From assembly GCA_965224195.1 (NCBI GenBank), contig OZ245040.1, positions 1,056,001 to 1,120,000 on the forward strand: DNA of 64,000 nt, given 5' to 3'. A model generated the notes under the pieces. It saw nothing but the letters and a program-made list of their open reading frames with translations, was not told the origin of the DNA and ran no database searches. Source of the DNA: Nitrosopumilus sp. (lineage in GTDB: Archaea; Thermoproteota; Nitrososphaeria; Nitrososphaerales; Nitrosopumilaceae). The position numbers and the translations under genes were made by a program. Positions 35,333 to 50,319 of the stretch are shown in pieces (position 1 is the stretch's first letter; every line of letters begins with the position of its first letter).

Positions 35333-35532
35333 TGATCACAGCAAAATGTTTGGAAAAGGAGATGTGTACATTAATGGGATTGAAGGTTTTTAGAGTTTTG
35401 TCAAACAGAACATGGCAAAGCATCATGGGGTGAATCCGGGAAAGTTCTTGTTGTACATCAAGGAGATGGAATGCAGATACAACAGTAGAGATGTAGATAC
35501 TTTCTCATTATTGCTTGATTATTGCCTTGGTG
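35333..35532 (+). mobile_element. IS1595-family transposase C-terminal remnant
   Basis: Translates as DHSK..GDVYINGIEGF.SFVK..HHGV....LYIKEMECRYN. Confidence 0.7.
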
Positions 35533-35552
35533 ATGAATAATTGAGTCACCCA

Positions 35553-35780
35553 TTATTTTTTGTCGCATTGTTTGTAAATTGGCTCAAAGAATGGTAACGG
35601 CAAATGTATGACATTAAGATATTTAATTATTTGATCATGTCTCAAGATATTTTGTTTTTTGATTGTGACTTTATTCATTATAGAATGATCAAAATACAAA
35701 AAACCAGAAGATGTCGTTATAATTTGCACATATCCTAAAACTCTCAACACTCTGACAAAATGATGCCAGCCTATTTTCAG
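35553..35780 (-). CDS. Possible divergent HicA-like toxin
   Basis: WHHFVRVLRVLGY...YFDH...VTI pattern, directly downstream of a HicB-like ORF. Confidence 0.35.
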   Translation of the reverse strand: MKIGWHHFVRVLRVLGYVQIITTSSGFLYFDHSIMNKVTIKKQNILRHDQIIKYLNVIHLPLPFFEPIYKQCDKK

Positions 35781-35980
35781 ATAAACACCACCTTGTGCAT
35801 AATATCTTTTGTAAAAAATTCGGATTTGGATTCTGGAAAGGCCTCTACATATCCGGCAATAATTTTATCCAATTCTGATTTTATCTCCTGTTTGTTTTTT
35901 CCAACAACAATTATCTCTGGTTTGTCGTAGCATTGAGCTAGCAATCCCTGCTCACTTTTTACCAGTTTTACTTGCAAATT
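35777..35980 (-). CDS. HicB-like antitoxin domain (start uncertain)
   Basis: VKSEQGLLAQCYDKPEIIVVGKNKQEIKSEL resembles the HicB fold pattern. Confidence 0.45.
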   Translation of the reverse strand, partial: NLQVKLVKSEQGLLAQCYDKPEIIVVGKNKQEIKSELDKIIAGYVEAFPESKSEFFTKDIMHKVVFI

Positions 35981-36449
35981 ACCCAAGATATAGGTATAAT
36001 AAATATGATATATATAAAATGTTATTATCCGGATTGATGCTGTCCTGCATACCACACTCCTTGTATCTGAGGATTTTGGAATGTGCAAGCATTACTTTTA
36101 CTTCTTTTGTAGTATATGCTCGCAAGCTAGGTGTCTTTTGCCTCTGTGGTAACATCTTGTAGATTATTTCCCAATTAAGATGAACTCGATTCATCACAAA
36201 GAAGTGTTTTATTCCTCCAAGCTTTGACGGTATGGAGTTAGGGTTTGCAGTCTGCCTCAAATACAGAACATAGTTTTCAAGCATTATCTGTAGATCATTG
36301 ATGAAAATTTCCAATAACTTCTTTTCATTAAATAATCCTGTGAATTTTCTGAATTGAGTAAGGTTTGATGTATAATTCTTTTTGGTATGCTTTGACTTGA
36401 TTGATTCTTCAAACAAGATCATGCTTCTTTGTTTTGTAAGCAATGTCAA
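35979..36449 (-). pseudogene. Truncated tyrosine recombinase (N-terminal half), paralog of 46288-47217
   Basis: LLTKQRS..LFEESIKSK.TKKNYT...NPNSIPSK...SLRAYTTKEVK shared; catalytic domain missing. Confidence 0.85.
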
Positions 36450-36677
36450 ACATTACATTCTTGTAATCCTTGGCAAAATTTTCTTTGCTTATGTTTGCAT
36501 ATAGCAATATAGAATATGGAGTTTTAATCCTCAATCTCTTGTTTTCTGCTGGTACCACCGTAACGATATTTTCATTTCTTAGTGTCAGATGATTCCTTTC
36601 TTTTAAGTCATGGTGAATCTTTGTTTTTGCAGGTATCTTATCATCTGGTTGCCTGATATTCTTGGAAACTTTGACAT
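36450..36677 (-). pseudogene. HicA toxin pseudogene, paralog of 47310-47546
   Basis: MSKFPRISGNQMIRYL then stop/frameshift, continuing HLTL...VVPA. Confidence 0.8.
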
Positions 36678-36889
36678 TATTGTTTGATAATAAGCATGTT
36701 AAATTCAGTTAAATTTCCACTCTCTTCGGCTGCAAGCTCTACTGCTTCCTTTATATTTTCCATCATATCTCCGAATGTATCGCTTTCTGATACTGCATGT
36801 AGTTCGTCACATCTGCCAACAAATCCGCCATCTTCAAGATCCTTGGTTATTACTACTGTGTAGGTCTTTTTTTGTAGGGTTGTACTCGT
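36677..36889 (-). pseudogene. HicB antitoxin paralog with ACG in place of the start codon
   Basis: TSTTLQKKTYTVVITKDLEDGGFVGRCDELHA...ENIKEAVELA matches the HicB at 47546-47752. Confidence 0.8.
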
Positions 36890-38175
36890 AACGTAGATAG
36901 TCTCAAAAGCGTTAAAAATATTGCTAGTCTTATGCGTATTTTTGTAAGTAAAAAGAGATTATTGATTGCATCAACTCCTGACAGGATTGACGCAATCTTT
37001 TGCTGTTCCTTAATGTTTTTTGTATATGGTAGTTTTGTATTGGCAATTTCATCTTGATTTATTGCATCATAAGTAGTTCCTTGTGAATAAACTAAAAATC
37101 TTTTTTTACTGTGATTGACAAGGTAGTAACAATATAATAGATCGCATTCTATTGGATTTAACGCTGCTACTCCTCTACCTAAGCAACATTTCTTTCTTGT
37201 TAAGTTAATTTCTCCAACAGGAGCCCTTACAGAAAATAGAATCGAATTATCATTTGTAGTTTTTTTAGGATCAGTACACCAAATCATTGGATTTGGATAT
37301 GTTGCTCCAAAATCTGTTACTCCTTGATAGAATGGCAATCCTTTTTCTTCTTTATTATAACTTTCAGATGGTGGAGATTGACCCATTGTAATTTGTAGTA
37401 TCTTTGCAGTAGGTTTGATCTCCCATTCTTCTGGAATCTCATCATATTTTCCAAATAATCCCCTTACCCTCTTGAATTTTTTATGCCCTATCCCCCTGGT
37501 CAGAAGCTCCTGCATTAGACCTTTCTTCAATAGCTCAGCTTTGTTTACAACTTCTTGTGTACATTCAATTAATGCGTCAACTCTAGAGAGGATTGACGCA
37601 ATCTTTTGCTGTTCATGAATTAGAGGCAAGAGAATCAAAATTTGTTTTAGGTTTTTTTTGGATAGTCCATAAACTGAAACTCCTGTAACTCTTGCAATAA
37701 TTTGTTTCGTGACAAAATTCATTGATGTCAGATATGCTCGAAAATCAACCGAAGTATTCCCTTTTACATCTCGGATTGCAATCGTATGTAACCCTGAGAC
37801 TAGTTTCTTTCCATCAACATTTTTCAACAATATGCTTGTGCCAGAACCTTCATGATCCTCTGATGCATCTGCTATGACAAGGTCTCCTTCTTTTAACAAC
37901 GAGATATTTTTTACTTTAATTTTATCAATGAAGGGAATTTCTTCATTTTTGCAATCAAGAAAAATTTTCCATTTTGTATGCATGTCTCCATAATGGATAT
38001 AGTTCACATCACCTTTGTCTTCAAGATCGTTACGTGAGTTTGTAGCTGTGGAAAGGAATTCAAACACTTCCTCAAATGTTTTGGTCTTCCAATCTTCAGG
38101 AATCTCTATCTCTTTTCCAAACAACCATTTAACAAGCTTGTATCCTTTTTGCGGTGGCGTGCAACCATCCTTCAA
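36853..38175 (-). CDS. hsdS: Type I RM specificity subunit, two TRDs but lacking the C-terminal conserved helix (silent allele)
   Basis: EIPEDW/EIPEEW and two EQQKIASILS; HsdS homology ends at ...SGVDA (36967). Confidence 0.88.
   Translation of the reverse strand: MKDGCTPPQKGYKLVKWLFGKEIEIPEDWKTKTFEEVFEFLSTATNSRNDLEDKGDVNYIHYGDMHTKWKIFLDCKNEEIPFIDKIKVKNISLLKEGDLVIADASEDHEGSGTSILLKNVDGKKLVSGLHTIAIRDVKGNTSVDFRAYLTSMNFVTKQIIARVTGVSVYGLSKKNLKQILILLPLIHEQQKIASILSRVDALIECTQEVVNKAELLKKGLMQELLTRGIGHKKFKRVRGLFGKYDEIPEEWEIKPTAKILQITMGQSPPSESYNKEEKGLPFYQGVTDFGATYPNPMIWCTDPKKTTNDNSILFSVRAPVGEINLTRKKCCLGRGVAALNPIECDLLYCYYLVNHSKKRFLVYSQGTTYDAINQDEIANTKLPYTKNIKEQQKIASILSGVDAINNLFLLTKIRIRLAIFLTLLRLSTLRVQPYKKRPTQ
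36967..37008 (-). repeat. 42-bp terminal hsdS repeat (inverted to 45870-45911, direct to 47827-47869)
   Basis: gaacagcaaaagattgcgtcaatcctgtcaggagttgaYgca. Confidence 0.92.
37448..37614 (-). repeat. 167-bp inverted repeat identical to 45234-45400
   Basis: Base-by-base comparison of the two hsdS central regions. Confidence 0.93.
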
Positions 38176-38278
38176 TGTCTGATTTCAAATGTTATTCCAT
38201 ATTAAGGCATAAACCATCATTTACAAACCCCGATAAATACAATACATTAAAAAACTCTGAAACACATATCAGTCTAAA

Positions 38279-41200
38279 ATGAATTTTGATGTAGGCAAAG
38301 GTCCTGAAGCAACAGAATCAGAACTTCCAGCACTAGAGCAGCTAGTTGCAATGGGATACCAATACATCACACAGTCAGAACTCAACAAAACACGTACAGA
38401 TTATCGTGATGTATTACTCTATGATAGACTTGAGCAAGCAATTAGACGCTTAAATCCTGATTTTGATGATGATGGGATTCATGATGCAGTAGCTCAAATC
38501 GGTGAGGATAGATTCCCTTACAATTTAGATCCTGTTGAAACAAATGAGAAAATCAGGGCAAAACTAATCGGACTATCAAAGTCTGGTGGATTAGAACCCG
38601 TTGTTGTAACTCAAAATTTTGGTGAAGGGCCAGTTCAAAAGGTGGCAAAAATATTTGATCTTGATAATCCACAAAACAATGACTTTGTAGTAACAAACCA
38701 ATTCCAACTAGAAGGATTAAAGAATCCAATCTTTCCCGATGTAACAATTTTTGTAAATGGCATCCCTCTAGTTCAAATTGAATGCAAATCCCCTGCAATA
38801 CCTGACCCAATTGGTGAGGCAGTGGATAGAAAAAATTTCTACAAGTATCAGCAAAGAGGTAACGGGTATGAAAAACTATTTTTCTACAATCACTGTCTAA
38901 TTGCAGCTTGTGGAACTTTGGCTAGAGTTGGAACACTAAATTCTAATTTAAACTATTATTCTAGATGGGCAAAGCCATATCCGTTATCTGTAGATGATGT
39001 AAAACAACTATGCAATGGCAAGGCAAGAGAGCAAGAAATTCTCATTGCAGGATTACTTGCAAAAGAAAATCTGCTAAACCACATGCAAAATTTTGTACTC
39101 TATGATACAATTAACCACAATCGTGTCAAAATGATTGCAAAACATCAGCAATACAAAGCAGTATCTGAATGTGTGAATCGTTTAAAATTAGGCGAGGACA
39201 TCAAAGACAAGGGCGGAATCATTTGGCACACACAAGGTTCAGGTAAATCATTTTCCATGTTATGGTTTGCATCGCAGCTAATGTACAAGTTTGGCAATCC
39301 TCCAATAATGATAGTTACAGACAGAAAACAACTAGACAAACAAATTCATGACACTTTTAAAAAATGTGGATTTCCCAGTCCAATTAGAGCAAAAAATGGG
39401 AAGCACTTGGCAGAACTATTGAAAAACCCTAAAGGCAAAACCATCATGGCAATTATTGACAAGTTTGCAACAGAGCATGGGGCACATACTGATGAGAAGG
39501 TAATATGCCTAGTTGATGAGGCACACAGAAGTCAGTACAAGATAAATGCCGAACAAATGCGAGTATCCATGCCTAATGCCGTGTTTTATGGCTTTACAGG
39601 CACGCCAATTGACAAAAATGACAAGAGTACACCTCGTGTCTTTGGACCAATCATTGACAAGTATGGATTCCGAGAATCCCAAGAAGATGGTGCAACATTG
39701 CCAATCAGGTATCATGGAAGACTATCTGAATTGTTTGTTGAAGGCGGAGAAACAATTGATGAACTCTTTGAGCGAATTATTGGCAGTGATCCTACAGTAA
39801 ATGAAGAACTCAAAGACAAACTCAAAAAACAATGTGCCACAAAGGGAAAGATTGCAGAAGCTCCATCAAGAATCAAACGAATATCCTTGGATTTAGTCAA
39901 ACATTACACTACTCACATTGAACCAAACGGATACAAGGCAATGCTTGTTGCACCATCAAGGGAAGCCGCTGTACTTTACAAAAAAAATTTAGATGAACTA
40001 AACGCGCCACCATCAAAAATTATCATGACTTCTGATTTGGGTGAGAAAGGAAAAGATGAGCAAAGTTGGGATGAATATCGCCTCTCCTCTGAACAAAGAG
40101 AACAAGAAGCAGAACTATTCAAGAGTGCAGATAATCCGACCAAGATCCTAATTGTAGTTGACATGTTGCTTGTAGGATATGATGCACCAATTTGTCAGGT
40201 ATTATATCTTGATAAGGGAATTAGAGAACACAGCTTACTTCAAGCAATTGCCAGAGTAAACAGACCGCATGATGAACCAAAGACACATGGATTAATTGTA
40301 GATTATTCAGGTGTCACCAAAGAATTACAAACAGCACTTGAAATGTTTGAGAAAGATGACATTGAAGGGGCATTGGATCCACTAAATGAATTTCTACAGT
40401 TACTAAAAGATAGACATGCTGATGCAATTGTCTTTTTCAAAGGTATTGACAGAGAAGACAATGATGCAATCATAGAATACTTTGAACCATTAGATCTACG
40501 TGATGAGTTTGAGCAAGCATTCAAGCTGTTTTCAAGGGCATTGGATTCTGTAATGCCTGATAAAGAAGCAGACCCATACATTGAGGATTTCAAGTTCCTA
40601 AGTAAGGCAAGGCAGATAATTCGCACCTATTATGAGGGTGTCAAGCCCAGTACACGCCCATATGCCAAAAAAATCCAGAAATTAATCGATGATCATATTC
40701 GTTCACTATGTATTTCTGAATTAATTAATCCAATGGAGATTACATATGAGAATTTCTTGGCCTTTGTCAAAAAGAAGGTAAAAAGTGAGAAAGCACAAGC
40801 TGCCTTGATCAAAAACAAGGCAATCCAGGTAATTGAAGAACTAAGGGGGAACAATCCTGCATATTATGAGAAACTCTGGGAGAGACTACAAAAAATTATT
40901 GAAGAGGAAGAAAAAAGACGCAGAGAAAATGCACAATACTTTATACATCAAGAAGTATATGCAGAAGTCTATGACAAAGCACTAGCAGAAGAAAAAGAAA
41001 GGCAAAAAGTATTCGGTGATTATGAAGCAACCCAATTTGAATTTGCATTGTATGGAGAATTTAATGAAATAAAAGGCAGTCGTGAGGAATCAATTGAATT
41101 AACAAAAAAGATTCACTCTCAATTGGTTAAAGAAACTGAAATTGTCGGATGGAGAACAAAAAACAGTGTTGAGAAAAACATGAAGACTATACTATATGAT

Positions 41201-41284
41201 ACACTTAGTGTTGCAGGATTTGAAGATGAAAAACTCTCCAAACTTTCAGAGAAGATACTAACATTGGCAAAGAACAGATTATGA
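38279..41284 (+). CDS. hsdR: Type I restriction endonuclease subunit R
   Basis: PD..IFVNGIPL..IECK nuclease motif, HTQGSGKS, DEAH, FTGTP, QAIARVNR. Confidence 0.95.
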   Translation: MNFDVGKGPEATESELPALEQLVAMGYQYITQSELNKTRTDYRDVLLYDRLEQAIRRLNPDFDDDGIHDAVAQIGEDRFPYNLDPVETNEKIRAKLIGLSKSGGLEPVVVTQNFGEGPVQKVAKIFDLDNPQNNDFVVTNQFQLEGLKNPIFPDVTIFVNGIPLVQIECKSPAIPDPIGEAVDRKNFYKYQQRGNGYEKLFFYNHCLIAACGTLARVGTLNSNLNYYSRWAKPYPLSVDDVKQLCNGKAREQEILIAGLLAKENLLNHMQNFVLYDTINHNRVKMIAKHQQYKAVSECVNRLKLGEDIKDKGGIIWHTQGSGKSFSMLWFASQLMYKFGNPPIMIVTDRKQLDKQIHDTFKKCGFPSPIRAKNGKHLAELLKNPKGKTIMAIIDKFATEHGAHTDEKVICLVDEAHRSQYKINAEQMRVSMPNAVFYGFTGTPIDKNDKSTPRVFGPIIDKYGFRESQEDGATLPIRYHGRLSELFVEGGETIDELFERIIGSDPTVNEELKDKLKKQCATKGKIAEAPSRIKRISLDLVKHYTTHIEPNGYKAMLVAPSREAAVLYKKNLDELNAPPSKIIMTSDLGEKGKDEQSWDEYRLSSEQREQEAELFKSADNPTKILIVVDMLLVGYDAPICQVLYLDKGIREHSLLQAIARVNRPHDEPKTHGLIVDYSGVTKELQTALEMFEKDDIEGALDPLNEFLQLLKDRHADAIVFFKGIDREDNDAIIEYFEPLDLRDEFEQAFKLFSRALDSVMPDKEADPYIEDFKFLSKARQIIRTYYEGVKPSTRPYAKKIQKLIDDHIRSLCISELINPMEITYENFLAFVKKKVKSEKAQAALIKNKAIQVIEELRGNNPAYYEKLWERLQKIIEEEEKRRRENAQYFIHQEVYAEVYDKALAEEKERQKVFGDYEATQFEFALYGEFNEIKGSREESIELTKKIHSQLVKETEIVGWRTKNSVEKNMKTILYDTLSVAGFEDEKLSKLSEKILTLAKNRL

Positions 41285-41823
41285 TCAGTAAACTTCGCTA
41301 TGGCAATAGTGTCATAGAATACCAAATTATTAAAAGTAAGAGAAGAAAGACTTCGGAAATTAGAGTGGATGAAAACGGAGTAGAGATTCATACTCCAATT
41401 ACAAAAAAAGATTCAGAGATTCAAGAGATTGTTAACACCAAAAAACAATGGATATTCAAAAAACAATTAGAGTTTACAGACAGAAATAAAAGACAATTCA
41501 AAACTACAACAAAAACTCTTGAATATCTTGAGAAAAGATCTTGGAAGCTGGCAGAGAAGATTGGTGTTAAACCAAAGAAGATAGTAGTAAAAAATCTCAA
41601 ATCAAGATGGGGAAGTGCTGGAAAAACAGGAACAATTACGCTTAATCAGGCGTTAACCAGAATGCCTCCGAGAATAATCGACTATGTGATAATTCATGAA
41701 TTATGTCATTTGAAAATTAAAGGACATTCAAGTAGATTTTGGAGTATTCTTTACTCATACAACAAAGACTATCAAAAAAACATTCTCTGGTTAGAAAATA
41801 ATTTCAAGGATTTGTTGGGATGA
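41281..41823 (+). CDS. M48/YgjP-like zinc metalloprotein
   Basis: KSRWGS, YVIIHELCHL, HSSRFW; typical hsdR neighbour. Confidence 0.88.
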   Translation: MISKLRYGNSVIEYQIIKSKRRKTSEIRVDENGVEIHTPITKKDSEIQEIVNTKKQWIFKKQLEFTDRNKRQFKTTTKTLEYLEKRSWKLAEKIGVKPKKIVVKNLKSRWGSAGKTGTITLNQALTRMPPRIIDYVIIHELCHLKIKGHSSRFWSILYSYNKDYQKNILWLENNFKDLLG

Positions 41824-41969
41824 CAAATGACTTGCAATTACTCAAAATAGGAATAAAAATGGGAGCCCACATTTGACATAACCAAAAATAAAAACAGAAT
41901 ATTTTATAAATTAATTATGGTGTTATAGAAGTATGTTGGAATTAAAACGTGTTCAGCATATCTTTATTG

Positions 41970-42696
41970 AATGCTATTCTGAACCTATTGATACCATTGA
42001 AACATGGAACAGAGCTTGTCATACAATTGCAATTAAGAATGATTCCGCATTTTACAACACTACAAAAGGTAGTAGCTCGAATCAGTCAAGAAATATTACA
42101 CACTGCAATTGGCAGATTCATTGGAATGGTATCACCTGGAAAAATATTTGCAGGAATCGATGGTACATGATTTGAGAGAAGACACGCCATACTGCAGATG
42201 TAATCTCAGGCATGCATTTACAAAATGCTCAACAGGATCTGGTATGAAATTGCAGTTGATTTGTGCAGTTGTAATCCAACATAATCCCATATCTCATGAC
42301 ACAAAGCATTTCCCAAAACTGTTTTCTAAAATGCTTGATGTTGTTGCAATGTGGATTATAGTGCTGGACAAGTAATACGATGCAGAACCAATACGCAAGA
42401 TGATCAAAGATGAGAATGGCTTATCTTTGATTCCTGTAAGAAACAAAGATTGTCTGATTAGCAGAACAAAAGGAAGATTACAGAAAACAGATGAGAAGAG
42501 AATTTGATTATTCATATACCATGAGAGAAATAAAACTGGAACGATATTTTCTGTAATTAAGAGAAGGTTTGATTCTGAAATCAAATCGTACAATGATGCC
42601 ATGAAAACAAAAGAGCTGTTGTATCGTGTCTTGGCTTGCAATTGTCATAGGATGCGTTTGATTTCTCTAGTTTGTATGATGATTTCTAGGAAGTCT
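41970..42696 (+). mobile_element. Degraded archaeal IS5-family element
   Basis: IPHFTTLQK, IDGT, HD, DK*YDAE, HERNK..TIFSVIKRRF; right end gatttctaggaagtc resembles the TIR at 50616. Confidence 0.8.
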
Positions 42697-42772
42697 TTTA
42701 TCTTAAATACAACTGACTCATCTAGCATCATCAGAATCCATATAACCCTGAATAATAGGTATCATTACAGAT

Positions 42773-44257
42773 TTGTCTGAAAAAGTTACACTTGAGATGC
42801 TAAAATCACACCTGTGGAAGGCATCAGACATTCTCAGAGGCAGTCTTGATGCATCAGAGTATCGAGAACCAGTAATGACCATTCTATTCCTAAAGCGACT
42901 AAATGATAGATTCGAGGAAAATGTTGAGAAACTGATTGCAGATGGAAAATCCGAAAAGGAAGCAAATCAAGACTTTAGACATGACTTTTTTGTTCCAAAA
43001 GAAGCAAGATGGGATAAACTATCTGCAGTAAGAAGCAGAGTTGGAGAAAAAATTGACAAGATTTGCAAACTAATTGAAAAATCAAATGAGAAGCTAGAAG
43101 GTGTTCTGACTAATACAAAGTATTCTGATCCTAGAAAGTATCCTGATGACAATTTAGCAAACTTGATTTCCCACTTTAATTCCCCACGATTAAGAAATTC
43201 CGATTTGGAGAAAGAAGATATTTTCGGGGATGCATATGAGTATCTCTTAGAGCAGTTTGCAGACGCAACAAAGAAGAAAGGTGGAGAGTTTTTTACACCA
43301 CGTGAAGTTGTAAATTTGCTTGTCAATTTGGTAGACCCCAAAGAAGGAATGAGAGTTTCAGACCCCACATGTGGCTCTGGTGGTATGTTGATTGTATCAC
43401 GTCATTACGTGGAGCAAAACAAGGGAAATCCACGTGACTTGGTACTAGATGGTCAGGAATCAAACTATGGAAACTTGGCAATGTGCAAAATGAACATGGT
43501 ATTGCATGGAATTTCAGACTTTACAATAGAGTATGGCGATACACTATCCAATCCTAGACAAGTAGATGGTGGAAAACTCAAAACATATGACAAGGTACTT
43601 GCAAATTTCCCATTCTCAATGGATTGGGATAACAACGGTGCAGAAAAAGATCCTTACAATCGATTCAGATTTGGCATTCCTCCTGCAAAAGGCAAGGCAG
43701 ATTTTGCATTTATTCAGCACATGTATTCGCAATTAAATGAAAAAGGTCAAGCTGCAATCGTCTGTTCTCAAGGCGTTTTGTTTAGGAGTTCAGTTGAGAG
43801 TAAAATTCGTGAAGGACTAATTGCAGAGGATGTAATTGAGGCAATAATTGCGATTCCTTCAAATTTATTCTTTGGAACAGGTATTCCTGCATGTGTTTTG
43901 ATATTAAACAAAAACAAACCAGCAAAAAGAAAGGAAAAAATAATTTTCATTTATGGTGCTAAAGATTACTTGGATGGTAAAAATAGAAACAAGCTTCGTG
44001 ATGAAGACATTACAAAAATAGTCAAGGCATTTTCTAATTTCAAAGATGTTGATAGATATTGCCATGTTGCAGATATTGATGAACTAAAAGAAAATGAGTT
44101 TAACCTTAATGTTCCAAGATATGTAGACATATCAGAACCTGAGGAAGAGATTGATATTCAGAATGCTTGGGATGAACTCAAAGAGACCAATACAGAACAA
44201 GAAAAACTAGAAAAGCAAGTAAAATCAGATTTGATGGAATTGGGAATAAATCTCTGA
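42773..44257 (+). CDS. hsdM: Type I RM DNA methyltransferase subunit M
   Basis: GDAYEYLL, GEFFTP, DPTCGSGG, ANFPF, FNLNVPRYV. Confidence 0.95.
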   Translation: MSEKVTLEMLKSHLWKASDILRGSLDASEYREPVMTILFLKRLNDRFEENVEKLIADGKSEKEANQDFRHDFFVPKEARWDKLSAVRSRVGEKIDKICKLIEKSNEKLEGVLTNTKYSDPRKYPDDNLANLISHFNSPRLRNSDLEKEDIFGDAYEYLLEQFADATKKKGGEFFTPREVVNLLVNLVDPKEGMRVSDPTCGSGGMLIVSRHYVEQNKGNPRDLVLDGQESNYGNLAMCKMNMVLHGISDFTIEYGDTLSNPRQVDGGKLKTYDKVLANFPFSMDWDNNGAEKDPYNRFRFGIPPAKGKADFAFIQHMYSQLNEKGQAAIVCSQGVLFRSSVESKIREGLIAEDVIEAIIAIPSNLFFGTGIPACVLILNKNKPAKRKEKIIFIYGAKDYLDGKNRNKLRDEDITKIVKAFSNFKDVDRYCHVADIDELKENEFNLNVPRYVDISEPEEEIDIQNAWDELKETNTEQEKLEKQVKSDLMELGINL

Positions 44258-44317
44258 TTTGTAATATTTGTTCTACAAATTAGAAAATGTTTTGTGCAGT
44301 TATGTGTATACTATCAC

Positions 44318-44704
44318 ATGGAGATGATTATTCTAGTAGGCATTGCAGGAAGTGGAAAAACTACATGGTGTACAAAGTATTTGCCACACCATACAAGAAT
44401 ATCACTGGATGACATAAAAAATCATAACAGAAAACTGGAAGATAAGATGATAATATCTGAACTGGAAAAAGAAAATAATATTGTTATAGATGACACAAAT
44501 CTTACACGAGACATACGTGAAAGACACATTACAATTGCTAGAGAGTATTGTACTTTAGTAAATGCAATTTATTTTTGCATTGACATACAAAAAACATATG
44601 TGCAAAATTTCAAGCGTGAAAAAAAGATACCATGCTATGTTTTAGATCGCCAGAAAAAACAGCTTGAGATACCTCGTGAAGAAGAAGGTTTTGGGTTTGT
44701 CTAG
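44318..44704 (+). CDS. P-loop kinase (AAA_33 / polynucleotide kinase-like)
   Basis: LVGIAGSGKTT, RISLD, VIDDTN. Confidence 0.8.
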   Translation: MEMIILVGIAGSGKTTWCTKYLPHHTRISLDDIKNHNRKLEDKMIISELEKENNIVIDDTNLTRDIRERHITIAREYCTLVNAIYFCIDIQKTYVQNFKREKKIPCYVLDRQKKQLEIPREEEGFGFV

Positions 44705-44765
44705 TTTTTAAATACATGAAAACTTGTAATCAGAATAGCCCGTTTGACCAGTCTTAAAATATGAT

Positions 44766-46013
44766 GTGAGATGTCGCTTGATAATGAAAAAACCAAAAAA
44801 AGGTTGCAAACTAGTCAAGGGATTATTTGGAAAGGAGATCGAGATTCCAGAAGAATGGAAAGTTGAAAAATTCAATGATAGAATTAAACTAGAATATGGC
44901 TCAAGTTTAACAGCAGAACAACGAGATAATGCAGGTAATCCAGTATATGATTCAGGTGGAATTATTGGATTTCATTCTAAACCTATTGTGAATAATATAG
45001 GAATTGTTGTAGCAAGAAAAGGTTCTATTGGAAATATTTTCTATGAAAAACAAGATTTCTTTCCAATAGATACTGTATATTATATTACAAAAAATGAAAC
45101 GACATTCAATTTACTTTTTCTTTTTTATTACCTAACAAATATGAAATTAGAAAATCTTGCAATAGTTACCTCTAAACCTGGAATTAGCAGAAATGAAATT
45201 TACTCACTTAAAATAATATTTCCTCTACTTCCCGAACAGCAAAAGATTGCGTCAATCCTCTCTAGAGTTGACGCATTAATTGAATGTACACAAGAAGTTG
45301 TAAACAAAGCTGAGCTATTGAAGAAAGGTCTAATGCAGGAGCTTCTGACCAGGGGGATAGGGCATAAAAAATTCAAGAGGGTAAGGGGATTATTTGGAAA
45401 GGAGATCGAGATTCCAGAAGAATGGGAGATTAGAAAGTTAGATGGAATAGGAGAGTTAATTGGTGGTGGCACACCTGATTCTACAAATCTAGAGTATTGG
45501 AATGGAGAAATATTATGGGCAGTTCCCACAGATATTACAAAATTACAAACTAATCTGATTGAAAATACTGAAAGAAAGATTACAAAAAAAGGATTGGATA
45601 ACAGTTCTGCTAAATTATTACCTATCGGTACAGTTTTGATTACTTCTAGAGCTACCATTGGTAAATGTGCAATAACTACAAAATCCATTACAACCAATCA
45701 GGGATTTCAGAATATTATCTGTAATAAAGATCAGAGTAATTTATTCATATTTTATGTAATGAAACATAATCAAAATGTATTAGTGAGATTATCTTATGGA
45801 ACAACATTTTTAGAAATCAGCAAAAAAGATATGCGGAAAATGCTAGTATGTTTGCCGTATTCTAGTTACGAACAGCAAAAGATTGCGTCAATCCTGTCAG
45901 GAGTTGACGCATACATACAGAAGAACCAAGAATACAAGGAAAAGTTGGAGAGGCTTAAAAAAGGCCTTATGCAAAAACTGCTTACAGGTCAGATCCGTGT
46001 AAAAATCAAATAA
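44766..46013 (+). CDS. hsdS: Type I RM specificity subunit, complete allele
   Basis: Two TRDs, both conserved helices, ends LKKGLMQKLLTGQIRV. Confidence 0.93.
   Translation: MRCRLIMKKPKKGCKLVKGLFGKEIEIPEEWKVEKFNDRIKLEYGSSLTAEQRDNAGNPVYDSGGIIGFHSKPIVNNIGIVVARKGSIGNIFYEKQDFFPIDTVYYITKNETTFNLLFLFYYLTNMKLENLAIVTSKPGISRNEIYSLKIIFPLLPEQQKIASILSRVDALIECTQEVVNKAELLKKGLMQELLTRGIGHKKFKRVRGLFGKEIEIPEEWEIRKLDGIGELIGGGTPDSTNLEYWNGEILWAVPTDITKLQTNLIENTERKITKKGLDNSSAKLLPIGTVLITSRATIGKCAITTKSITTNQGFQNIICNKDQSNLFIFYVMKHNQNVLVRLSYGTTFLEISKKDMRKMLVCLPYSSYEQQKIASILSGVDAYIQKNQEYKEKLERLKKGLMQKLLTGQIRVKIK
44819..45425 (+). repeat. 40-bp direct repeat in front of each TRD (44819-44858 and 45386-45425)
   Basis: gggattatttggaaaggagatcgagattccagaagaatgg occurs twice. 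Confidence 0.9.
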
Positions 46014-46041
46014 TTTCTGAGTTATAACATATTAAAAATTA

Positions 46042-46248
46042 TTATTGTCTATCTTTATTATCGGATTTTTTCCAGATTTGTATTTGTCCACCATATACAT
46101 CATTGTCATATGCCATTGAAGGAATTTGAGCATAAAATCCTGTACGGCCAGTGCTAAAAGTTTTAGCTGGCAATAATACCTCATGTTCTTTGCCATCAGG
46201 CATTGTTAGTTTGGCTGAGACAAAATTTGGTTTCTCATTAGACATCAT
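46042..46248 (-). CDS. Small hypothetical protein
   Basis: 68-aa ORF with KTFSTGRTGFY, downstream of the recombinase. Confidence 0.65.
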   Translation of the reverse strand: MMSNEKPNFVSAKLTMPDGKEHEVLLPAKTFSTGRTGFYAQIPSMAYDNDVYGGQIQIWKKSDNKDRQ

Positions 46249-46287
46249 TTGTTTTTGTTGTCTGTGGCTTGTTAATTAATTGAAAGT

Positions 46288-47217
46288 TTATCTGATCTCT
46301 ATTTTATACATTATTTTCTTAAATTCGGTAAATAACTCCTTCAATGTTGGTGTAAAGTAAATTCCATCAAGGCCATTTTTGTGACCCATTAGTTTCTCTG
46401 CAATGTTATAGTTTATGCTATTGTCCAGTTTTAGTATGGTATTATATCGCTTTCTAAATCCATGATCCGCTTGTACATCAAAACGATTGTCATACTTTAG
46501 TCTTGTAATGTTGCTTTTTTGTATTGTTCTGTATATTACAGAGCGAACTCCACTCCATCCTATCTGCTTAGGGCGAAATTTGCATGTAGCAAATATGGGT
46601 GTGTCTTTGTAAAATATCTCACCCTTACTTTTTCGATAGTCATGATATGCATTTACTGCTTTTGTTGCTTGTGGTGTGAGAAATGCCCAATATTCTTCTA
46701 TATCTCCAGCATAGAGCAGTACTGCTGTACAGCCATAAGGCATTTTCATCATATGTCTTATTGACAAATCATGATCAAAGATGCCTATCCTGGCACCAGT
46801 AACTGCAAAGAAATGAATTAACGCCTTGTTTCTAGGATTTGTTGCGCTATGTATTAGTTCTTTTACTTCTTTTGTCGTATATGCTCGCAAGCTTTGTGTC
46901 TTTTGTTTTTGTGGGAACATCTTTGTGATTATATTCCAATTGAGGCTGATCTCATTCATAACGCAAAAATGCTTTATGCCATGAAATTTTGACGGTATTG
47001 AGTTAGGATTTGTGGCGCGTTTTAGTTCAATCAAGTAATTTTCTAGCTTGTATTGTAATTCCAAATTAGGCATAGTAACTAATTGATTTTGATGTGAAAG
47101 ATCTGCAAATTTTAGAAATGAATCAAGATGTGCGGTATAATTCTTTTTTGTATATTTTGATTTGATTGATTCTTCAAATAATAGAGAACTACGTTGTTTA
47201 GTTAGTAAAATACTCAT
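46288..47217 (-). CDS. Tyrosine recombinase/integrase, apparently intact
   Basis: TGAR, HGFR, LMGH...Y catalytic residues. Confidence 0.92.
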   Translation of the reverse strand: MSILLTKQRSSLLFEESIKSKYTKKNYTAHLDSFLKFADLSHQNQLVTMPNLELQYKLENYLIELKRATNPNSIPSKFHGIKHFCVMNEISLNWNIITKMFPQKQKTQSLRAYTTKEVKELIHSATNPRNKALIHFFAVTGARIGIFDHDLSIRHMMKMPYGCTAVLLYAGDIEEYWAFLTPQATKAVNAYHDYRKSKGEIFYKDTPIFATCKFRPKQIGWSGVRSVIYRTIQKSNITRLKYDNRFDVQADHGFRKRYNTILKLDNSINYNIAEKLMGHKNGLDGIYFTPTLKELFTEFKKIMYKIEIR

Positions 47218-47309
47218 GTATTACTTTATGGCAAAATGTTTATTTCTGCACGTATGTTTATGAAACTAGATTGTTTTGATTTTTATAATCATATTATTTT
47301 TACAGCATA

Positions 47310-47546
47310 TTATTTTACATTTCCTTTGTTGTGATCACCTACAAATTCATCCCTGGTTATTTCTACAGCTTTTAATATTTGTAAAAACAAACCTGGTTTT
47401 ATCATATTTTGGCCTGCAGGAATAGTTACACGTATACTGATATTTGCTAATGTAACATGACTGCCTTTTCTATTTTTTACAAAGAATCCCTTTTTAATTA
47501 AATATTTTATCATCTGGTTGCCTGATACTTTTGGAAGTTTTGTCAT
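47310..47546 (-). CDS. hicA: HicA-family toxin
   Basis: KLPKVSG...GF....KGSHVTL...VTIP. Confidence 0.88.
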   Translation of the reverse strand: MTKLPKVSGNQMIKYLIKKGFFVKNRKGSHVTLANISIRVTIPAGQNMIKPGLFLQILKAVEITRDEFVGDHNKGNVK

Positions 47547-47752
47547 TACTTTAGTACAATAAGCATATTAAATTCATCTTGGCTGCTTTCAGATGCAAGC
47601 TCTACAGCTTCTTTGATATTTTCCATTATCTCGCCATACGTTTCGCCTTGAGAATAGGCATGTAATTCCTCACATGTGCCAACAAACCCGCCATCTTCTA
47701 CGTCTGCTGTAACTATAATGGTGTAAGTTTTTTTTTCCAGTGTAGTACTCAT
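47546..47752 (-). CDS. hicB: HicB-family antitoxin
   Basis: EDGGFVGTCEEL..SQGET..E...NIKEAVEL; likely start MSTTLEK. Confidence 0.88.
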   Translation of the reverse strand: MSTTLEKKTYTIIVTADVEDGGFVGTCEELHAYSQGETYGEIMENIKEAVELASESSQDEFNMLIVLK

Positions 47753-47826
47753 TGTATACACATTGTGCACATATGCAAATATATTAAATATACTGTTGAT
47801 TTTATGCATAATTTCAAATATGTTAT

Positions 47827-47977
47827 TGCATCAACTCCTGTCAAGGATTGACGCAATCTTTTGCTGTTCATAGATTAGAGGCAAGAGAATCAAAATTTGT
47901 TTTAGGTTTTTTTTGGATAGTCCATAAACTGAAACTCCTGTAACTCTTGCAACAATTTGTTTCGTGACAAAATTCAT
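47827..47977 (-). pseudogene. Third hsdS fragment: end of a TRD plus terminal repeat
   Basis: 47870-47977 nearly identical to 37615-37722; 47827-47869 is a variant terminal repeat. Confidence 0.9.
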
Positions 47978-48195
47978 AGACGTGATGGAAAACATTTCAG
48001 ATTCTCTTGATGATAGTATGATGGAGGAAACTACATCAGTTTATACAGACAAGGGATTGACAGTGTAGCCATCAGAGATCATCTGAAAAACAAAAGCATT
48101 GTTCCATGCATTCCAAAAAGAGCTTTCAAGAAAAACAACAGTAAAAAATACAGTCACAAAAACTACAACAGGGCGAGATTTGTAGCGGAGCGGAT
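47968..48195 (+). mobile_element. IS5-family (IS427-like) transposase internal fragment
   Basis: KFIDVMENISD...YTDKG.D...IRDHLKNK...PCIP...RFVAER, homologous to 49965-50190. Confidence 0.75.
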
Positions 48196-48990
48196 GATGT
48201 TGAATGCGTCTTTGAATGTCTCAGAGAGAGGCTCAGCTGAAATCTTTCTGTCCCTGTATGATTTTTGGCCTTCTTTAGAACCATAAAACTCTGCAAGTTT
48301 GATGCTTTCTGGCAGCGTATGTGGATACTGTTTGGCTGGAATGATCAATCGGGAATGTTTCTTGTTGGCTGAATCATACAGTGAATCATCATCATATGTA
48401 GGATCTGCCAGAATGTTTTGGAATAATCCTGCAAGCGGTTCTGTTATTGCATTGAATTTTTGAGAATCATGAATATTTGCAGTGCTAACATCAGAGAACA
48501 GCGGAACTACCAGTTTTCCAGTAGAGCCATCAGTATCAGTTCCTGCAACTGGAAGACGGTTGCTTCTGATGCCTGGTTTGTGCCAGGCAGGGCCTGCAGT
48601 TTTCAGCACGGAGATGTCAACTGGTGCAGATGTGTAATCGGCTAGTCTCTCTGAGACAGACAGACTGCCCATGGTGCTGATAATTTCAGATGTTGGAAGA
48701 TTCTGAAGTCTTCTGCCGACTGTTCTTCTGTTTGGGATCTGTTGCACCCTGCAAGCCTTGAGCAGTATGTAATCATTGCACTTGATTGAAAAAAATAACG
48801 AGACGTGTCGTTACTTGGAACTCTCATCCTAGACCTTGTGATGAACAATTGTATCACAAGAACAGTTGAACAGGCATACGGCCTGCCAGGCCTAACCATA
48901 TCCCCAACAAATACAATACTCCAGCCGGTTCTTTTGCGTCTTCGATAAAATAGATGAGTAGGCATGATTTTGATGGTGTTGCGTGGCGGT
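48196..48990 (-). mobile_element. Degraded DDE transposase, family uncertain
   Basis: GRPY, IPNRRTVGRRL, TANIHDS, ADPTYD motifs over frameshifted ORFs; higher GC. Confidence 0.7.
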
Positions 48991-48994
48991 GAAT

Positions 48995-49351
48995 TTAGAA
49001 CATCTTGTGTTTTTTGGCTAGTTTGACTAATTTCTCAAAATCTTTTGGAGGAATAAAAGTAGCAAACTGAGCAAAAGTCCATTTACCTCTCATTCTTGGT
49101 TTGTCACCAATGATATTGTATCTTAATCTAAGCTCCTTTTTTCTATTAATTTGAATCTCATCTAGAATTATTATTTTTCCTTGTTCTGCTGAATCTTGTT
49201 GAATCCATACACATCTTAGGATTTGACAATTCTTGAGTGTCTTTTTGTTGTAATGTGTATGAAAGATAAACGGTGGTAGTTTTGGTAATTGTATTGTTCT
49301 ATCTTCTTCGGATAAACTGTAAACGTTTTCCAAGTATCCTGACTTTGTCAT
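48995..49351 (-). CDS. Hypothetical protein
   Basis: 118-aa ATG ORF. Confidence 0.6.
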   Translation of the reverse strand: MTKSGYLENVYSLSEEDRTIQLPKLPPFIFHTHYNKKTLKNCQILRCVWIQQDSAEQGKIIILDEIQINRKKELRLRYNIIGDKPRMRGKWTFAQFATFIPPKDFEKLVKLAKKHKMF

Positions 49352-49439
49352 TTTGATTTATTCGTCTGTTGGTTTGTCAATCAATCTTTTTTGGATTTTC
49401 CAATAAGCCCACTGATAATGACTTTCTTCACATACAATG

Positions 49440-50319
49440 AACTCGTCTCAAAACAGATCATTTAGTAAATAATTGATGATCATTTAGATCTATGAACAGC
49501 AAAATCTCAAATCAATTCATGAAATTCAAAGAATTGACAGGCAAACAGTGGGAAATGATTGAATCATGTGCTCCTCCACCTGCAAAAACTGGCAGGCCAA
49601 GAGATACGGACAGAAAAATCATCAACGGAATCATTTATGTTCTGACAACTGGATGCAGATGGGATGACATGCCAAAAAAATACGGCGATGACTCCACTGC
49701 AAACAGAAGATTAAACTCTTGGCAGCAGAAAGGAATCTGGAAAAAGATTTTTCCTTCAATGATAAAATCAGCACATAAACAAAGCAAGGTTAATCTGCAA
49801 AGGATATCAGTTGACTCATCAAGTGTTGCTGCAAAAAAAGGGGCAACTGCATAGGAAGAGATGGTTTCAAGAAGGTTACAGGCACAAGGATTCATGCTGC
49901 CGTAGTAGATGGCAATGGATTGCCAGTATCCATACTATCGAGTCCTGCAAATACTCATGACAGTACGAAATTCATTGATGTGATGGAAAACATTTCGGAT
50001 TTTCCTGGTGATGAATCAGCTAAACAGATCACATCAGCATATGCAGACAGGGGATACGATTCAAAATCAATTCGAGATTATTTGAAAAATAGAAATATCA
50101 ATCCATGCATTCCATTTGGAAAAAATAACAATAAAGCAACAAAAAACAAGTCATACAAAAAATACAATAAAATTCGTTATGTTGTGGAGGGATTCTTTGC
50201 TTGGTTCAAAAATGGATTCAGAAGGACAGCAATCAGATATGAAAGAGCAGGCAGAAAATTATCTGGCATTTGTCAATATTGCATCATTTTTGATGTATTG
50301 TAGGGTTTTGAGATGAGTT
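49440..50319 (+). mobile_element. IS5-family (IS427 subgroup) element, 880 bp
   Basis: 15-bp TIRs aactcRtctcaaaac; ORFA TGRPR..GCRWDDMP..YG, A7G4 slippery site, ORFB HD/ADRGYD; extra frameshift near 50247. Confidence 0.88.

What the first reader, a model, noticed from the sequence alone, without database searches (positions are those of the whole stretch)
36853..47977. Archaeal Type I RM shufflon: invertible hsdS alleles with their own tyrosine recombinase and HicAB
Seen: a complete hsdS (+, 44766-46013) and an oppositely oriented hsdS (-, 36853-38175) have different TRDs. They share a perfect 167-bp central repeat (37448-37614 / 45234-45400) and a 42-bp terminal repeat (36967-37008 / 45870-45911). 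The minus copy loses HsdS homology exactly at the terminal repeat, so only one copy carries the C-terminal helix. An intact tyrosine recombinase and hicA-hicB lie next to the complete allele. Known: the pneumococcal ivr locus shuffles TRDs by recombinase-driven inversion, and the tvr locus couples hsdS shuffling to a recombinase plus a TA pair. Inference: inversions at the two repeat pairs flip a 7.6-8.9 kb segment carrying hsdR and hsdM and give four full-length TRD combinations, i.e. a switchable methylome and antiviral specificity. I am not aware of such a system being characterised in Thaumarchaeota.
Basis: partly seen in the sequence, partly recalled or inferred. Interest (0 to 1): 0.9.

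Follow-up and report, generated by a model that had tools for sequence, protein, structure and literature searches.

The report
Switchable restriction-specificity locus in Nitrosopumilus

Summary
hsdS (+, 44766-46013) and hsdS' (-, 36853-38175) have unrelated TRDs. They share a perfect 167-bp inverted repeat and a 42-bp one with one mismatch, and hsdS' loses homology exactly after the 42-bp repeat.

The organism is a Nitrosopumilus. The recombinase belongs to a Nitrosopumilaceae clade that holds all 17 hsdS-linked recombinases in a 74-row tree; 0 of 47 rows outside it are hsdS-linked. Relatives show a recurring module: truncated hsdS', hicB, hicA, rec, then a convergent complete hsdS.

The window holds an intact copy of this module on the right and a decayed one on the left. 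A second such locus lies elsewhere in the genome.

The repeats contain a lox/dif-like palindromic core. The central repeat is 96-100% identical within the genome but 76% to the nearest species, so the two copies still exchange sequence.

No read evidence for inversion was obtained, because the contigs break at the repeats.

Verdict: a probable phase-variable Type I RM locus, a new member of a known kind in a phylum absent from the one bacterial survey's phylum tables I read. Confidence about 0.6, interest about 0.5.

The parts
35979..36449 (-). Truncated recombinase pseudogene (left, decayed copy of the module)
   Evidence: Residues 4-124 match the intact recombinase at 63%. 72% nt identity to 46860-47181. 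90% nt identity over 986 nt to a further decayed copy at C1:1972147-1973113.
36603..36677 (-). hicA remnant, stop after 24 codons
   Evidence: Read from the sequence. It lies within the 71% direct repeat 36634-37008 / 47503-47869.
36683..36937 (-). hicB-like remnant, open frame but no ATG at the homologous start
   Evidence: Translation. 60% identical to the intact HicB-like protein by tblastn.
36853..38175 (-). hsdS' : N-terminal region, TRD1', central conserved region, TRD2', then truncated after the terminal repeat (no C-terminal helix)
   Evidence: Pfam Methylase_S, 2 stretches. Alignment with hsdS.
36967..37008 (-). Terminal repeat L with palindromic core (core 36967-36996)
37418..37629 (-). 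Central repeat L (perfect 37448-37614), with core site at 37573-37602
38279..41284 (+). hsdR (1001 aa)
   Evidence: Pfam HSDR_N, SWI2_SNF2 and T1R_D3-like. PADLOC REase_I E 2e-137.
41281..41823 (+). YgjP-like metallopeptidase gene downstream of hsdR
   Evidence: Pfam PF01863 E 1.1e-36. Also follows hsdR in relatives.
42005..42696 (.). Repeated-element (IS-like) remnant between the YgjP-like gene and hsdM
   Evidence: 76-82% nt matches to four other genome places and to 50619-50927. No family search was run on it.
42773..44257 (+). hsdM (494 aa)
   Evidence: Pfam N6_Mtase E 6.5e-106 and HsdM_N.
44294..44704 (+). Small AAA_33 / polynucleotide-kinase-like gene between hsdM and hsdS
   Evidence: Pfam AAA_33 E 6.1e-14. 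NCBIfam Pnkp-type hits far below their cut-offs. Conserved at this place in G009 at 76%.
44766..46013 (+). Complete hsdS: N-terminal region, TRD1, central region, TRD2, terminal repeat, C-terminal helix
   Evidence: The 409-aa form from ATG 44784 is in the protein collection.
45219..45430 (+). Central repeat R (perfect 45234-45400), core site 45246-45275
45870..45911 (+). Terminal repeat R, core site 45882-45911
46288..47217 (-). Intact tyrosine recombinase (309 aa) of the hsdS-linked Nitrosopumilaceae clade
   Evidence: NCBIfam XerA E 4.7e-13 but 49 bits against a cut-off of 220. PDB XerA 5hxy E 4.8e-6 with the clade profile. R143, H252, R255, H279 and Y287 invariant in 13 of 13 sequences. 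Tree.
47310..47546 (-). hicA (78 aa)
   Evidence: Pfam HicA_toxin 38.6 bits, cut-off 27.
47546..47809 (-). hicB-like gene (87 aa), start overlapping the hicA end
   Evidence: No Pfam hit. PDB 2yzt E 2.9e-5 and HicB 6u0i E 0.047.
47823..47983 (-). Third hsdS fragment (end of a TRD1'-like domain) with terminal-type repeat R2 (47827-47872). Its core has one extra base in the centre.
   Evidence: 93% to 37569-37728. Inverted against 45867-45911 at 91%. Core read. Weak PF01420 match with one TGA.

Best explanation

The intact tyrosine recombinase (46288-47217) is inferred to act on two classes of palindromic core sites. These lie in the conserved hsdS motif coding for ...IASILS(G/R)VDA. One class sits at the start of the central conserved region (37573-37602 and 45246-45275). 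The other sits at the end of TRD2 (36967-36996 and 45882-45911).

Inversion at the central pair would swap the TRD2 halves between the two genes. Inversion at the terminal pair would move the only C-terminal helix from one gene to the other. Together they give four full-length HsdS proteins. In every state the second gene is left helix-less and presumably inactive.

In this genome each inversion would flip 7.6 or 8.9 kb that carry hsdR and hsdM.

HicAB is inferred to stabilise the module or to restrain the recombinase, by analogy with TvrAT.

Shown here: the anatomy, the clade-level linkage of recombinase and hsdS, homogenisation of the repeats, and the same TRD1 joined to another downstream half in another public assembly.

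Inferred only: that inversion happens, which protein catalyses it, at what rate, and the methylome consequence.
For: (1) Exact anatomy.

(2) Recombinase clade. In a 74-row tree, all 17 hsdS-linked rows (15 fetched loci plus the window's and L001's) fall in one clade of 27 rows with SH-aLRT 96; 0 of 47 rows outside are hsdS-linked. By identity class, 17 of 31 loci at >=52% identity have hsdS in the fetched flanks, against 0 of 49 at lower identity. With >=5 kb on both sides the figures are 12 of 19 against 0 of 15. hsdS occurs in both orientations in 9 of those 19.

(3) Recurring module in relatives (L051, L053, L059, L062): truncated hsdS', hicB, hicA, rec, then a convergent complete hsdS, with inverted repeats up to 189 nt at 99.5%.

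(4) A second Type I system of another family in the same genome (L001) has the same design. Its rec paralogue is 67% identical and its inverted repeat is 504 nt at 96%.

(5) Concerted evolution. The central repeat is 96-100% identical between the two copies but 76% to the nearest species, where hsdM is 77% and hsdR 80%. The adjacent rec-hicAB copies are only 71-72% alike. Homogenisation is therefore confined to the hsdS repeats.

(6) Core site. It has 13-nt arms around a 7-nt centre. The strict form occurs 3 times in 2.07 Mb, all in this locus. In relatives the paired sites share their centre while the two classes differ. An equivalent palindrome sits at the same codons in locus B.

(7) P0019, from another public assembly, has the same TRD1 (one residue different). 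It diverges right after ...VDALIE, 8-9 nt past the core. P0010 carries that TRD1 allele with the window's central region.
Against: No direct sign of inversion. One search listed no strand-changing joint in any of 4 runs. Three runs are k-mer contigs that break at the repeats. The one raw-read run is Hi-C, with only about 1-9 reads deep per direction and 151-nt reads that cannot span 167 bp.

The canonical partner site R2 has an altered centre, and the hsdS copy next to the intact recombinase is only a 160-nt stump.

The full hsdS' lies 8.9 kb away beside a dead recombinase copy, so the present arrangement may be a product of decay.

hsdS' has only a TTG start and no in-frame ATG.

7 of 19 clade loci with good flanks show no hsdS.

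The recombinase scores below Pfam's and NCBIfam's cut-offs, and no catalytic lysine was identified.

The conserved DNA motif may be explained by the conserved protein motif and by AT-rich codon choice.
Confidence: 0.6

Rival explanations
1. Mobile cassette and relic. The rec-hicAB unit, with an hsdS piece attached, is chiefly a selfish integrating module that inserts at the conserved hsdS motif. The two inverted hsdS genes are debris of such insertions and of later IS-linked rearrangement. The repeats are kept alike by occasional homologous recombination or gene conversion, not by programmed high-frequency switching.
For: Several decayed copies exist: the left copy in the window, L002 with a stop in rec, and L003 without hsdS. 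The left and right modules are direct repeats flanking the whole RM system. An IS-like remnant separates the YgjP-like gene from hsdM, and gene order differs from every relative examined. An AU test rejects one clade for recombinases linked to family-A RM loci (p-AU 0.0017), so the module has changed RM family; the groups were named after a first tree had been seen. More distant relatives (34-37%) lie on viral contigs.
Against: A 167-nt perfect repeat beside modules that have diverged to 71% needs recent and repeated exchange between the two genes. Both TRDs of hsdS' are intact open frames (440 aa). The design in which only one C-terminal helix is shared by two genes recurs in several species. 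That is hard to explain as debris.
Confidence: 0.27
2. Two fixed specificity subunits. hsdS' is expressed as it stands and serves as a second, helix-less or otherwise altered, S subunit or as a regulator, with no rearrangement.
For: hsdS' has its own N-terminal region and a 104-bp divergent spacer towards hsdR that could hold a promoter.
Against: The C-terminal conserved helix is replaced by 37 residues read from the hicB remnant in another frame. The start codon is TTG. This reading does not explain the perfect repeat or the recombinase linkage.
Confidence: 0.06
3. Assembly artefact. The order or orientation of the pieces between the repeats was mis-joined by the assembler.
For: Repeats of 167-212 nt can mislead assemblers. 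Contigs of public runs break at every repeat, so they cannot confirm the order.
Against: The chromosome is one 2.06-Mb contig without N in a genome scored 99.85% complete. All unique pieces are present without differences in two runs (table 8). Relatives assembled independently show the same kinds of inverted hsdS pairs.
Confidence: 0.03

Closest known systems
Streptococcus pneumoniae SpnIII / ivr (cod) locus and other bacterial 'epigenetic invertons' (PMC4948785 passages; PMC7672463 section 13)
   Same: A complete Type I RM system. Extra hsdS copies in inverted orientation with other TRDs. Inverted repeats inside conserved hsdS regions. A locus-encoded tyrosine recombinase. A predicted small set of alternative HsdS proteins.
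   Different: The host is an archaeon of the Nitrososphaerota. The recombinase is nearest archaeal XerA, and only weakly; its relation to PsrA/CreX was not tested. Both copies keep their own 5' ends, and what is shared is the single 3' helix. In this window the flipped segment is 7.6-8.9 kb and carries hsdR and hsdM. A HicAB pair is part of the module. Inversion has not been demonstrated.
Streptococcus pneumoniae SpnIV / tvr locus (PMC6265443, passages)
   Same: A toxin-antitoxin pair directly followed by a tyrosine recombinase (tvrA-tvrT-tvrR) sits between TRD-encoding hsdS segments. Four arrangements are expected from four TRD segments. TvrT restrains recombinase expression, which offers a model for HicAB here.
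   Different: tvr uses direct repeats and excision-reintegration of a circle. Here the matched sites are inverted. The only direct pair of terminal-type sites (L and R2) differs in its centre. Homology of Rec to TvrR and of HicAB to TvrAT was not tested.
Mycoplasma pulmonis hsd loci with the HvsR recombinase
   Same: hsdS genes undergo recombinase-driven inversions that give variant specificities, and some states lose activity (passage of PMC4948785). From recall only: there the two hsdS genes flank hsdR and hsdM inside the invertible element, as in this window.
   Different: HvsR is not encoded in its target locus (PMC7672463 section 13). It is a bacterial system with no toxin-antitoxin pair. 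The original paper (PMC24968) was not held, so the architecture is recalled, not checked.
Predicted invertons of Euryarchaeota in the survey of Huang et al. 2020 (PMC7672463, Tables 1 and 2)
   Same: Archaeal Type I loci with several hsdS genes and an invertase homologue (4 REBASE loci and 11 NCBI loci, mostly the TvrR clade).
   Different: A different phylum; no Thaumarchaeota or Nitrososphaerota row appears in either table. Those loci are listed only in supplements that I could not open.

Membership tests
Phase-variable Type I RM with invertible hsdS (epigenetic inverton) | Complete Type I system: hsdR, hsdM, hsdS | tested here: met
   Full-length Pfam and PADLOC matches.
Phase-variable Type I RM with invertible hsdS (epigenetic inverton) | At least two hsdS genes or fragments in opposite orientation with different TRDs | tested here: met
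   There is also a third fragment.
Phase-variable Type I RM with invertible hsdS (epigenetic inverton) | Inverted repeats within conserved hsdS regions flanking TRD-coding sequence | tested here: met
   167 nt perfect, and 42 nt with one mismatch.
Phase-variable Type I RM with invertible hsdS (epigenetic inverton) | Site-specific recombinase encoded at the locus | tested here: met
   46288-47217. Catalytic-type residues are invariant in the clade. The clade is linked to hsdS.
Phase-variable Type I RM with invertible hsdS (epigenetic inverton) | Alternative orientations coexisting in one population | tested here: inconclusive
   no strand-changing joint was listed. However, the contigs break at the repeats and the raw reads are shallow and too short.
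Phase-variable Type I RM with invertible hsdS (epigenetic inverton) | Several alternative m6A motifs in the methylome | not testable with these tools
   No kinetic or signal-level data were available.
tvr-type excision-reintegration locus | TA pair plus tyrosine recombinase between TRD-coding segments | tested here: met
   hicB-hicA-rec lies between the hsdS stump (47823-47983) and hsdS. The same arrangement is seen in relatives.
tvr-type excision-reintegration locus | Direct repeats that allow excision of a circle carrying the recombinase and TRDs | tested here: not met
   The matched sites are inverted. The direct pair L/R2 differs in the core centre by one extra base plus substitutions. No circle junction appears.
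Tyrosine recombinase superfamily | R..HxxR..H/W..Y catalytic residues and profile match | tested here: met
   R143, H252, R255, H279 and Y287 are invariant in 13 of 13 sequences; their catalytic roles are assigned from recall. PDB XerA E 4.8e-6. Pfam Phage_integrase scores only 19.6 bits, below its cut-off of 27.1.
Archaeal XerA (chromosome dimer resolution) | Score above the NCBIfam equivalog cut-off | tested here: not met
   49.3 bits against a cut-off of 220.
HicAB toxin-antitoxin | HicA toxin domain | tested here: met
   PF07927, 38.6 bits, cut-off 27.
HicAB toxin-antitoxin | HicB antitoxin encoded next to it | tested here: inconclusive
   The adjacent overlapping 87-aa gene has no Pfam hit. 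PDB 2yzt E 2.9e-5 and HicB 6u0i E 0.047. No DNA-binding domain is evident.

The most novel reading that the evidence does not exclude
The hicB-hicA-rec unit is a mobile 'specificity-switch cassette' of Nitrosopumilaceae. It targets a palindrome written into the conserved HsdS helix motif and brings an extra hsdS body with it. In doing so it converts ordinary Type I systems of at least two unrelated families into four-way switches in which two genes compete for one C-terminal helix. If so, abundant marine nitrifying archaea would run population-level methylome and antiviral bet-hedging driven by a lineage-specific recombinase.
Probability: 0.3. Interest if true: 0.75.

Novelty: new member of a known kind. 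Interest (0 to 1): 0.52.

Why it matters
Phase-variable Type I systems are known as drivers of epigenetic heterogeneity and phage bet-hedging. They are known almost only in host-associated bacteria: 91.9% of species in the survey of PMC7672463 (section 13).

A well-formed example with its own recombinase clade in Nitrosopumilus would extend the mechanism to ammonia-oxidising archaea. It recurs across species and sits in two RM families of one genome. No such system appears for these archaea in two archaeal RM reviews, where term finds gave no inversion or recombinase hit (PMC11033074 and PMC10609329).

It also gives a concrete locus and candidate sites to test with long reads that already exist for such assemblies.

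Tried and rejected
Reads. One search for runs and one laying were allowed. Three of the four runs are k-mer contigs that end at every repeat, so orientation cannot be read. The Hi-C raw-read run is shallow. No strand-changing joint was listed, and I take this as no information.

The joints 37008>37564 and 45284>45870 are one junction seen on both strands. With 44861>45870 they are most simply contigs of other hsdS alleles, not inversion products.

I considered whether the A>G variant at 36970 marks an inverted form. I rejected this because the mismatch lies outside the presumed crossover.

Metagenome scans: a 48-nt stretch of the central repeat gave 0 hits. The degenerate core gave one 1-kb contig of no use.

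Near-identical chimeric HsdS proteins (TRD1'+TRD2 or TRD1+TRD2') were sought with two protein searches. None was among the 120 best of each. hsdS' has no relative above 81% partial identity.

The recombinase tree labelled by RM family is poorly resolved: starred branches force only one change. Only the AU test speaks, and its groups were chosen after a tree had been seen.

The second contig C2 (7.4 kb) was checked as a possible alternative form of the locus. It shares nothing with C1.

tRNA search and base composition gave no island boundary.

Literature searches found no paper on hsdS inversion in Nitrosopumilus or Thaumarchaeota.

The relation of this recombinase to PsrA, TvrR or HvsR was not tested, because I held no such sequence from a tool.

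Full report
WHAT IS THERE

The window is G000:C1:1056001-1120000, from a 2.07-Mb genome in two contigs.

Between 35.9 and 48.0 kb lie, in this order:
- a truncated recombinase gene (35979-36449, -)
- a hicA remnant that stops after 24 codons (36603-36677, -)
- a hicB-like remnant without its ATG (36683-36937, -)
- hsdS' (36853-38175, -)
- hsdR (38279-41284, +)
- a YgjP-like peptidase gene (41281-41823, +)
- an IS-like remnant (about 42005-42696)
- hsdM (42773-44257, +)
- a small AAA_33 kinase-like gene (44294-44704, +)
- hsdS (44766-46013, +)
- an intact tyrosine recombinase (46288-47217, -)
- hicA (47310-47546, -)
- a hicB-like gene (47546-47809, -)
- a 160-nt hsdS stump (47823-47983, -)

The central inverted repeat is 212 nt at 95-96%. 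The 42-nt terminal repeat has one mismatch, at 36970. Twenty shuffles of the region gave perfect inverted repeats of at most 20 nt.

The two HsdS proteins share an identical central region and only weakly similar TRDs. hsdS' departs from hsdS directly after ...SILSGVDA and ends in 37 residues read from the hicB remnant in another frame. Only hsdS therefore has the C-terminal helix.

The left flank of hsdS' is a decayed direct copy of the right-hand hicB-hicA-rec unit, at 71-72% nt identity.

The right-hand unit is itself followed by an hsdS stump that carries a third terminal-type repeat (47827-47872), inverted against 45867-45911 at 91%. The locus therefore holds five copies of one about 42-nt motif: three on the minus strand and two on the plus strand.

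THE RECOMBINASE FAMILY

A scan of one genome per species with a 13-sequence alignment of the recombinase found 98 relatives, of which the best 80 were kept.

Of 31 loci at 52% identity or more, 17 have hsdS in the fetched flanks and 16 have HicA or HicB. Of 49 loci at lower identity, none has hsdS. With at least 5 kb on both sides the figures are 12 of 19 against 0 of 15. hsdS occurs in both orientations in 9 of those 19.

For a tree I left out 7 of the 80 loci whose recombinase match was split or shorter than 270 residues, and the program dropped L077. In the remaining 74 rows, all 17 hsdS-linked rows sit in one clade of 27 rows (SH-aLRT 96), and none of the 47 other rows is hsdS-linked. Ten rows of that clade show no hsdS in the flanks held.

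In the first draw of relatives, matches at 52% or more occur in 6 of 36 other genomes of the genus and in none of 24 genomes of other genera of the order. Only 34-37% relatives were found on viral contigs (4 loci).

The protein is not XerA: 49 bits against a cut-off of 220. It does keep R143, H252, R255, H279 and Y287 in 13 of 13 aligned sequences; I assign their catalytic roles from recall.

THE RECURRING MODULE

In L051, L053, L059 and L062 the order is: hsdS' (ending at the terminal motif and abutting or overlapping hicB), hicB, hicA, rec, then a convergent complete hsdS whose last about 100 nt follow the inverted copy of the motif. Their inverted repeats reach 189 nt at 99.5% (L051) and 208 nt at 92% (L062).

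Flipping the segment between the terminal motifs would hand the single C-terminal helix from one gene to the other. Flipping between the central motifs would swap the TRD2 halves.

The window's right side is this module with its hsdS' reduced to a stump. The full hsdS' now sits 8.9 kb away on the far side of hsdR.

Gene order differs among the relatives of this RM system. G009 has hicB-, S-, kinase-, M-, then a half S+, R+, Y+. The present order is therefore derived, and the IS-like remnant between the YgjP-like gene and hsdM fits that.

A SECOND LOCUS IN THE SAME GENOME

At C1:503-521 kb (L001) a Type I system of another family has this order: hsdR (with an EcoEI-type C-terminal domain), hsdS, a NucS-like gene, rec, hicA, hicB, hsdS', hsdM. 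Its hsdM is 25% identical to the window's. It carries a 504-nt inverted repeat at 96%.

There one TRD is present in both genes, at position 2 in one and position 1 in the other.

An AU test rejects a single clade for the recombinases attached to family-A systems (p-AU 0.0017). So the module has changed RM family at least once. The groups were named after I had seen a tree, and the backbone of that tree is unresolved.

SIGNS OF ONGOING EXCHANGE

The central repeat is 96-100% identical between hsdS and hsdS'. To the nearest species it is 76% identical, no more than hsdM (77%) or hsdR (80%). The rec-hicAB copies beside the two genes are only 71-72% alike. Homogenisation is thus confined to the hsdS repeats.

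In the protein collection, P0019 (317 aa, from another assembly) carries the same TRD1 with one residue changed. It diverges from the window's protein immediately after ...VDALIE into another central region and TRD that this genome lacks. P0010 carries the same TRD1 allele with the window's central region. That break lies 8-9 nt beyond the palindromic core.

THE CANDIDATE SITE

Each motif copy holds two 13-nt inverted arms around a 7-nt centre. The terminal class reads GATTGCGTCAATCC TGTCAGG AGTTGAYGCA. The central class has TCTCTAG in the middle.

The strict palindrome occurs three times in the genome, all in this locus.

In the window and in L053, L058 and L059 both copies of each class have the same centre, and in L062 both central copies do (only one terminal copy was found there). 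In all of these, and in L036, the centres of the two classes differ. Tyrosine recombinases need matching centres (established knowledge of Cre/FLP/Xer, from recall). This would keep the two inversions in register.

Site R2 has one extra base in its centre and may be dead. Locus B has an equivalent palindrome at the same codons, and its truncated copy loses homology within 10 nt of it.

A caution applies. The motif also encodes a conserved HsdS helix start, and the codons used are the AT-rich ones, so conservation of the DNA as such is not proven.

READS

Four runs were laid on 35500-48500. X1 and X2 hold 97% of the sampled words, but as short contigs that stop at each repeat. No listed piece spans a repeat, and no strand-changing joint was listed. 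The Hi-C raw reads of X4 give about 1-9 reads per direction per bin, and 151-nt reads cannot cross 167 bp. The test is therefore inconclusive.

What the depths do show is a second form at hsdS'. The TRD1' contig has depth 78.5 against 109.6 for the hsdR contig in X1, and 273.8 against 344-388 in X2. A contig joining the hsdS N-terminal words to a motif copy has 31.5 and 104.8 in the two runs. The sums (110.0 and 378.6) match the hsdR depth.

A>G at 36970 has 30.8 of 115.7 in X1.

The joints 37008>37564 and 45284>45870 are the same junction on the two strands, and their break equals that of P0019.

I read this as a coexisting allele of hsdS' in about a quarter of the genomes, not as an inversion product. 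The tool itself warns that contig depth is no share of cells.

COMPARISON WITH THE LITERATURE

From passages and one section read:
- Inverting hsdS loci with a locus-encoded tyrosine recombinase are well known in bacteria (PMC4948785, PMC7394358, PMC7672463).
- The tvr locus places a toxin-antitoxin pair and a recombinase between TRD segments, and its toxin restrains the recombinase. It works by excision and reintegration at direct repeats (PMC6265443).
- Huang et al. tabulate 4 (REBASE) and 11 (NCBI) loci in Euryarchaeota and none in Thaumarchaeota. They find 91.9% of inverton-bearing species host-associated.
- Milman et al. did not scan archaea (PMC9881135).
- Chanin et al. had 42 archaeal long-read sets, all Euryarchaeota or Crenarchaeota, and call archaeal invertons minimally investigated (PMC10028968).
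- In two reviews of archaeal RM systems, term finds gave no hit for inversion or recombinase. The only mentions of recombining S subunits and phase variability that I saw refer to the largely bacterial surveys (PMC11033074 and PMC10609329).
- Searches for Nitrosopumilus or Thaumarchaeota together with hsdS returned 5 and 3 papers, none on this subject.
- Supplements that may list archaeal loci were closed.

VERDICT

The anatomy, the clade-level linkage, the second locus and the homogenised repeats make a recombinase-driven hsdS switch the best reading (about 0.6). The main rival is a mobile cassette plus relic arrangement with only occasional recombination (about 0.27).

It is a new member of a known kind: the same mechanism as bacterial epigenetic invertons, in a phylum where I found none reported. 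Its own traits are a separate recombinase clade, a HicAB pair and a shared-helix design. Interest is moderate.

Noticed in passing
L001 (G000:C1:503000-521000), 4744-15463: A second Type I RM locus of another family with the same design: hsdR, hsdS, NucS-like gene, rec, hicA, hicB, hsdS', hsdM. It has a 504-nt inverted repeat at 96%. One TRD is present in both hsdS genes, at different positions.
   Followed up: partly
L002 (G000:C1:1939000-1953000), 6119-8190: A half-size hsdS (one TRD plus C-terminal helix) convergent with a recombinase copy that is 84% identical but holds a stop, plus a hicA fragment. This is a further decayed module.
   Followed up: partly
L003 (G000:C1:1966000-1979000), 6149-6933 and 2859-3019/5725-5885: hicB and recombinase remnants 90% identical in DNA to the window's left decayed copy, with no hsdS nearby. 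A 161-nt inverted repeat at 99% lies beside them.
   Followed up: no
window 36853-38188 in runs X1 and X2: The contigs of TRD1' and TRD2' have about 0.7-0.8 of the depth of the neighbouring genes. Contigs of other hsdS sequence make up the difference. This suggests a coexisting hsdS' allele in roughly a quarter of the genomes in two runs.
   Followed up: partly
proteins P0019 and P0010: The same TRD1 allele (one residue different from the window's) occurs in public assemblies with two different downstream halves. The break lies right after ...VDALIE.
   Followed up: partly
window 44294-44704: A 136-aa AAA_33 / polynucleotide-kinase-like gene sits between hsdM and hsdS. It is conserved at that place in the nearest species (76% identity). 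Its role in a Type I operon is unexplained.
   Followed up: no
window 42005-42696 and 50619-50927: IS-like remnant between the YgjP-like gene and hsdM. It has 76-82% copies at four other genome places, and an inverted copy (81%) inside the ORF 50598-51116.
   Followed up: no
window 47967-50303: Direct repeats 47967-48115 / 49965-50114 (71-85%), with further copies of their first 50-130 nt at eight other genome places. ORFs 49492-49854 and 49920-50303 look to me like a split transposase, judged by eye with no family search. The locus seems to lie in a patch of mobile-element debris.
   Followed up: no
G000:C1:911519-911556: A perfect 38-nt piece of the central hsdS repeat stands alone elsewhere in the chromosome. 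Loose ends in the reads at 37513/37550 and 45298/45335 come from it.
   Followed up: no
G000:C2 (7434 nt): The second contig of the assembly shares no sequence with the chromosome. Its nature was not examined.
   Followed up: no
window 34832-35014: Two pairs of 37-38-nt direct repeats at 97% (34832/34978 and 34869/34942) inside small overlapping ORFs.
   Followed up: no
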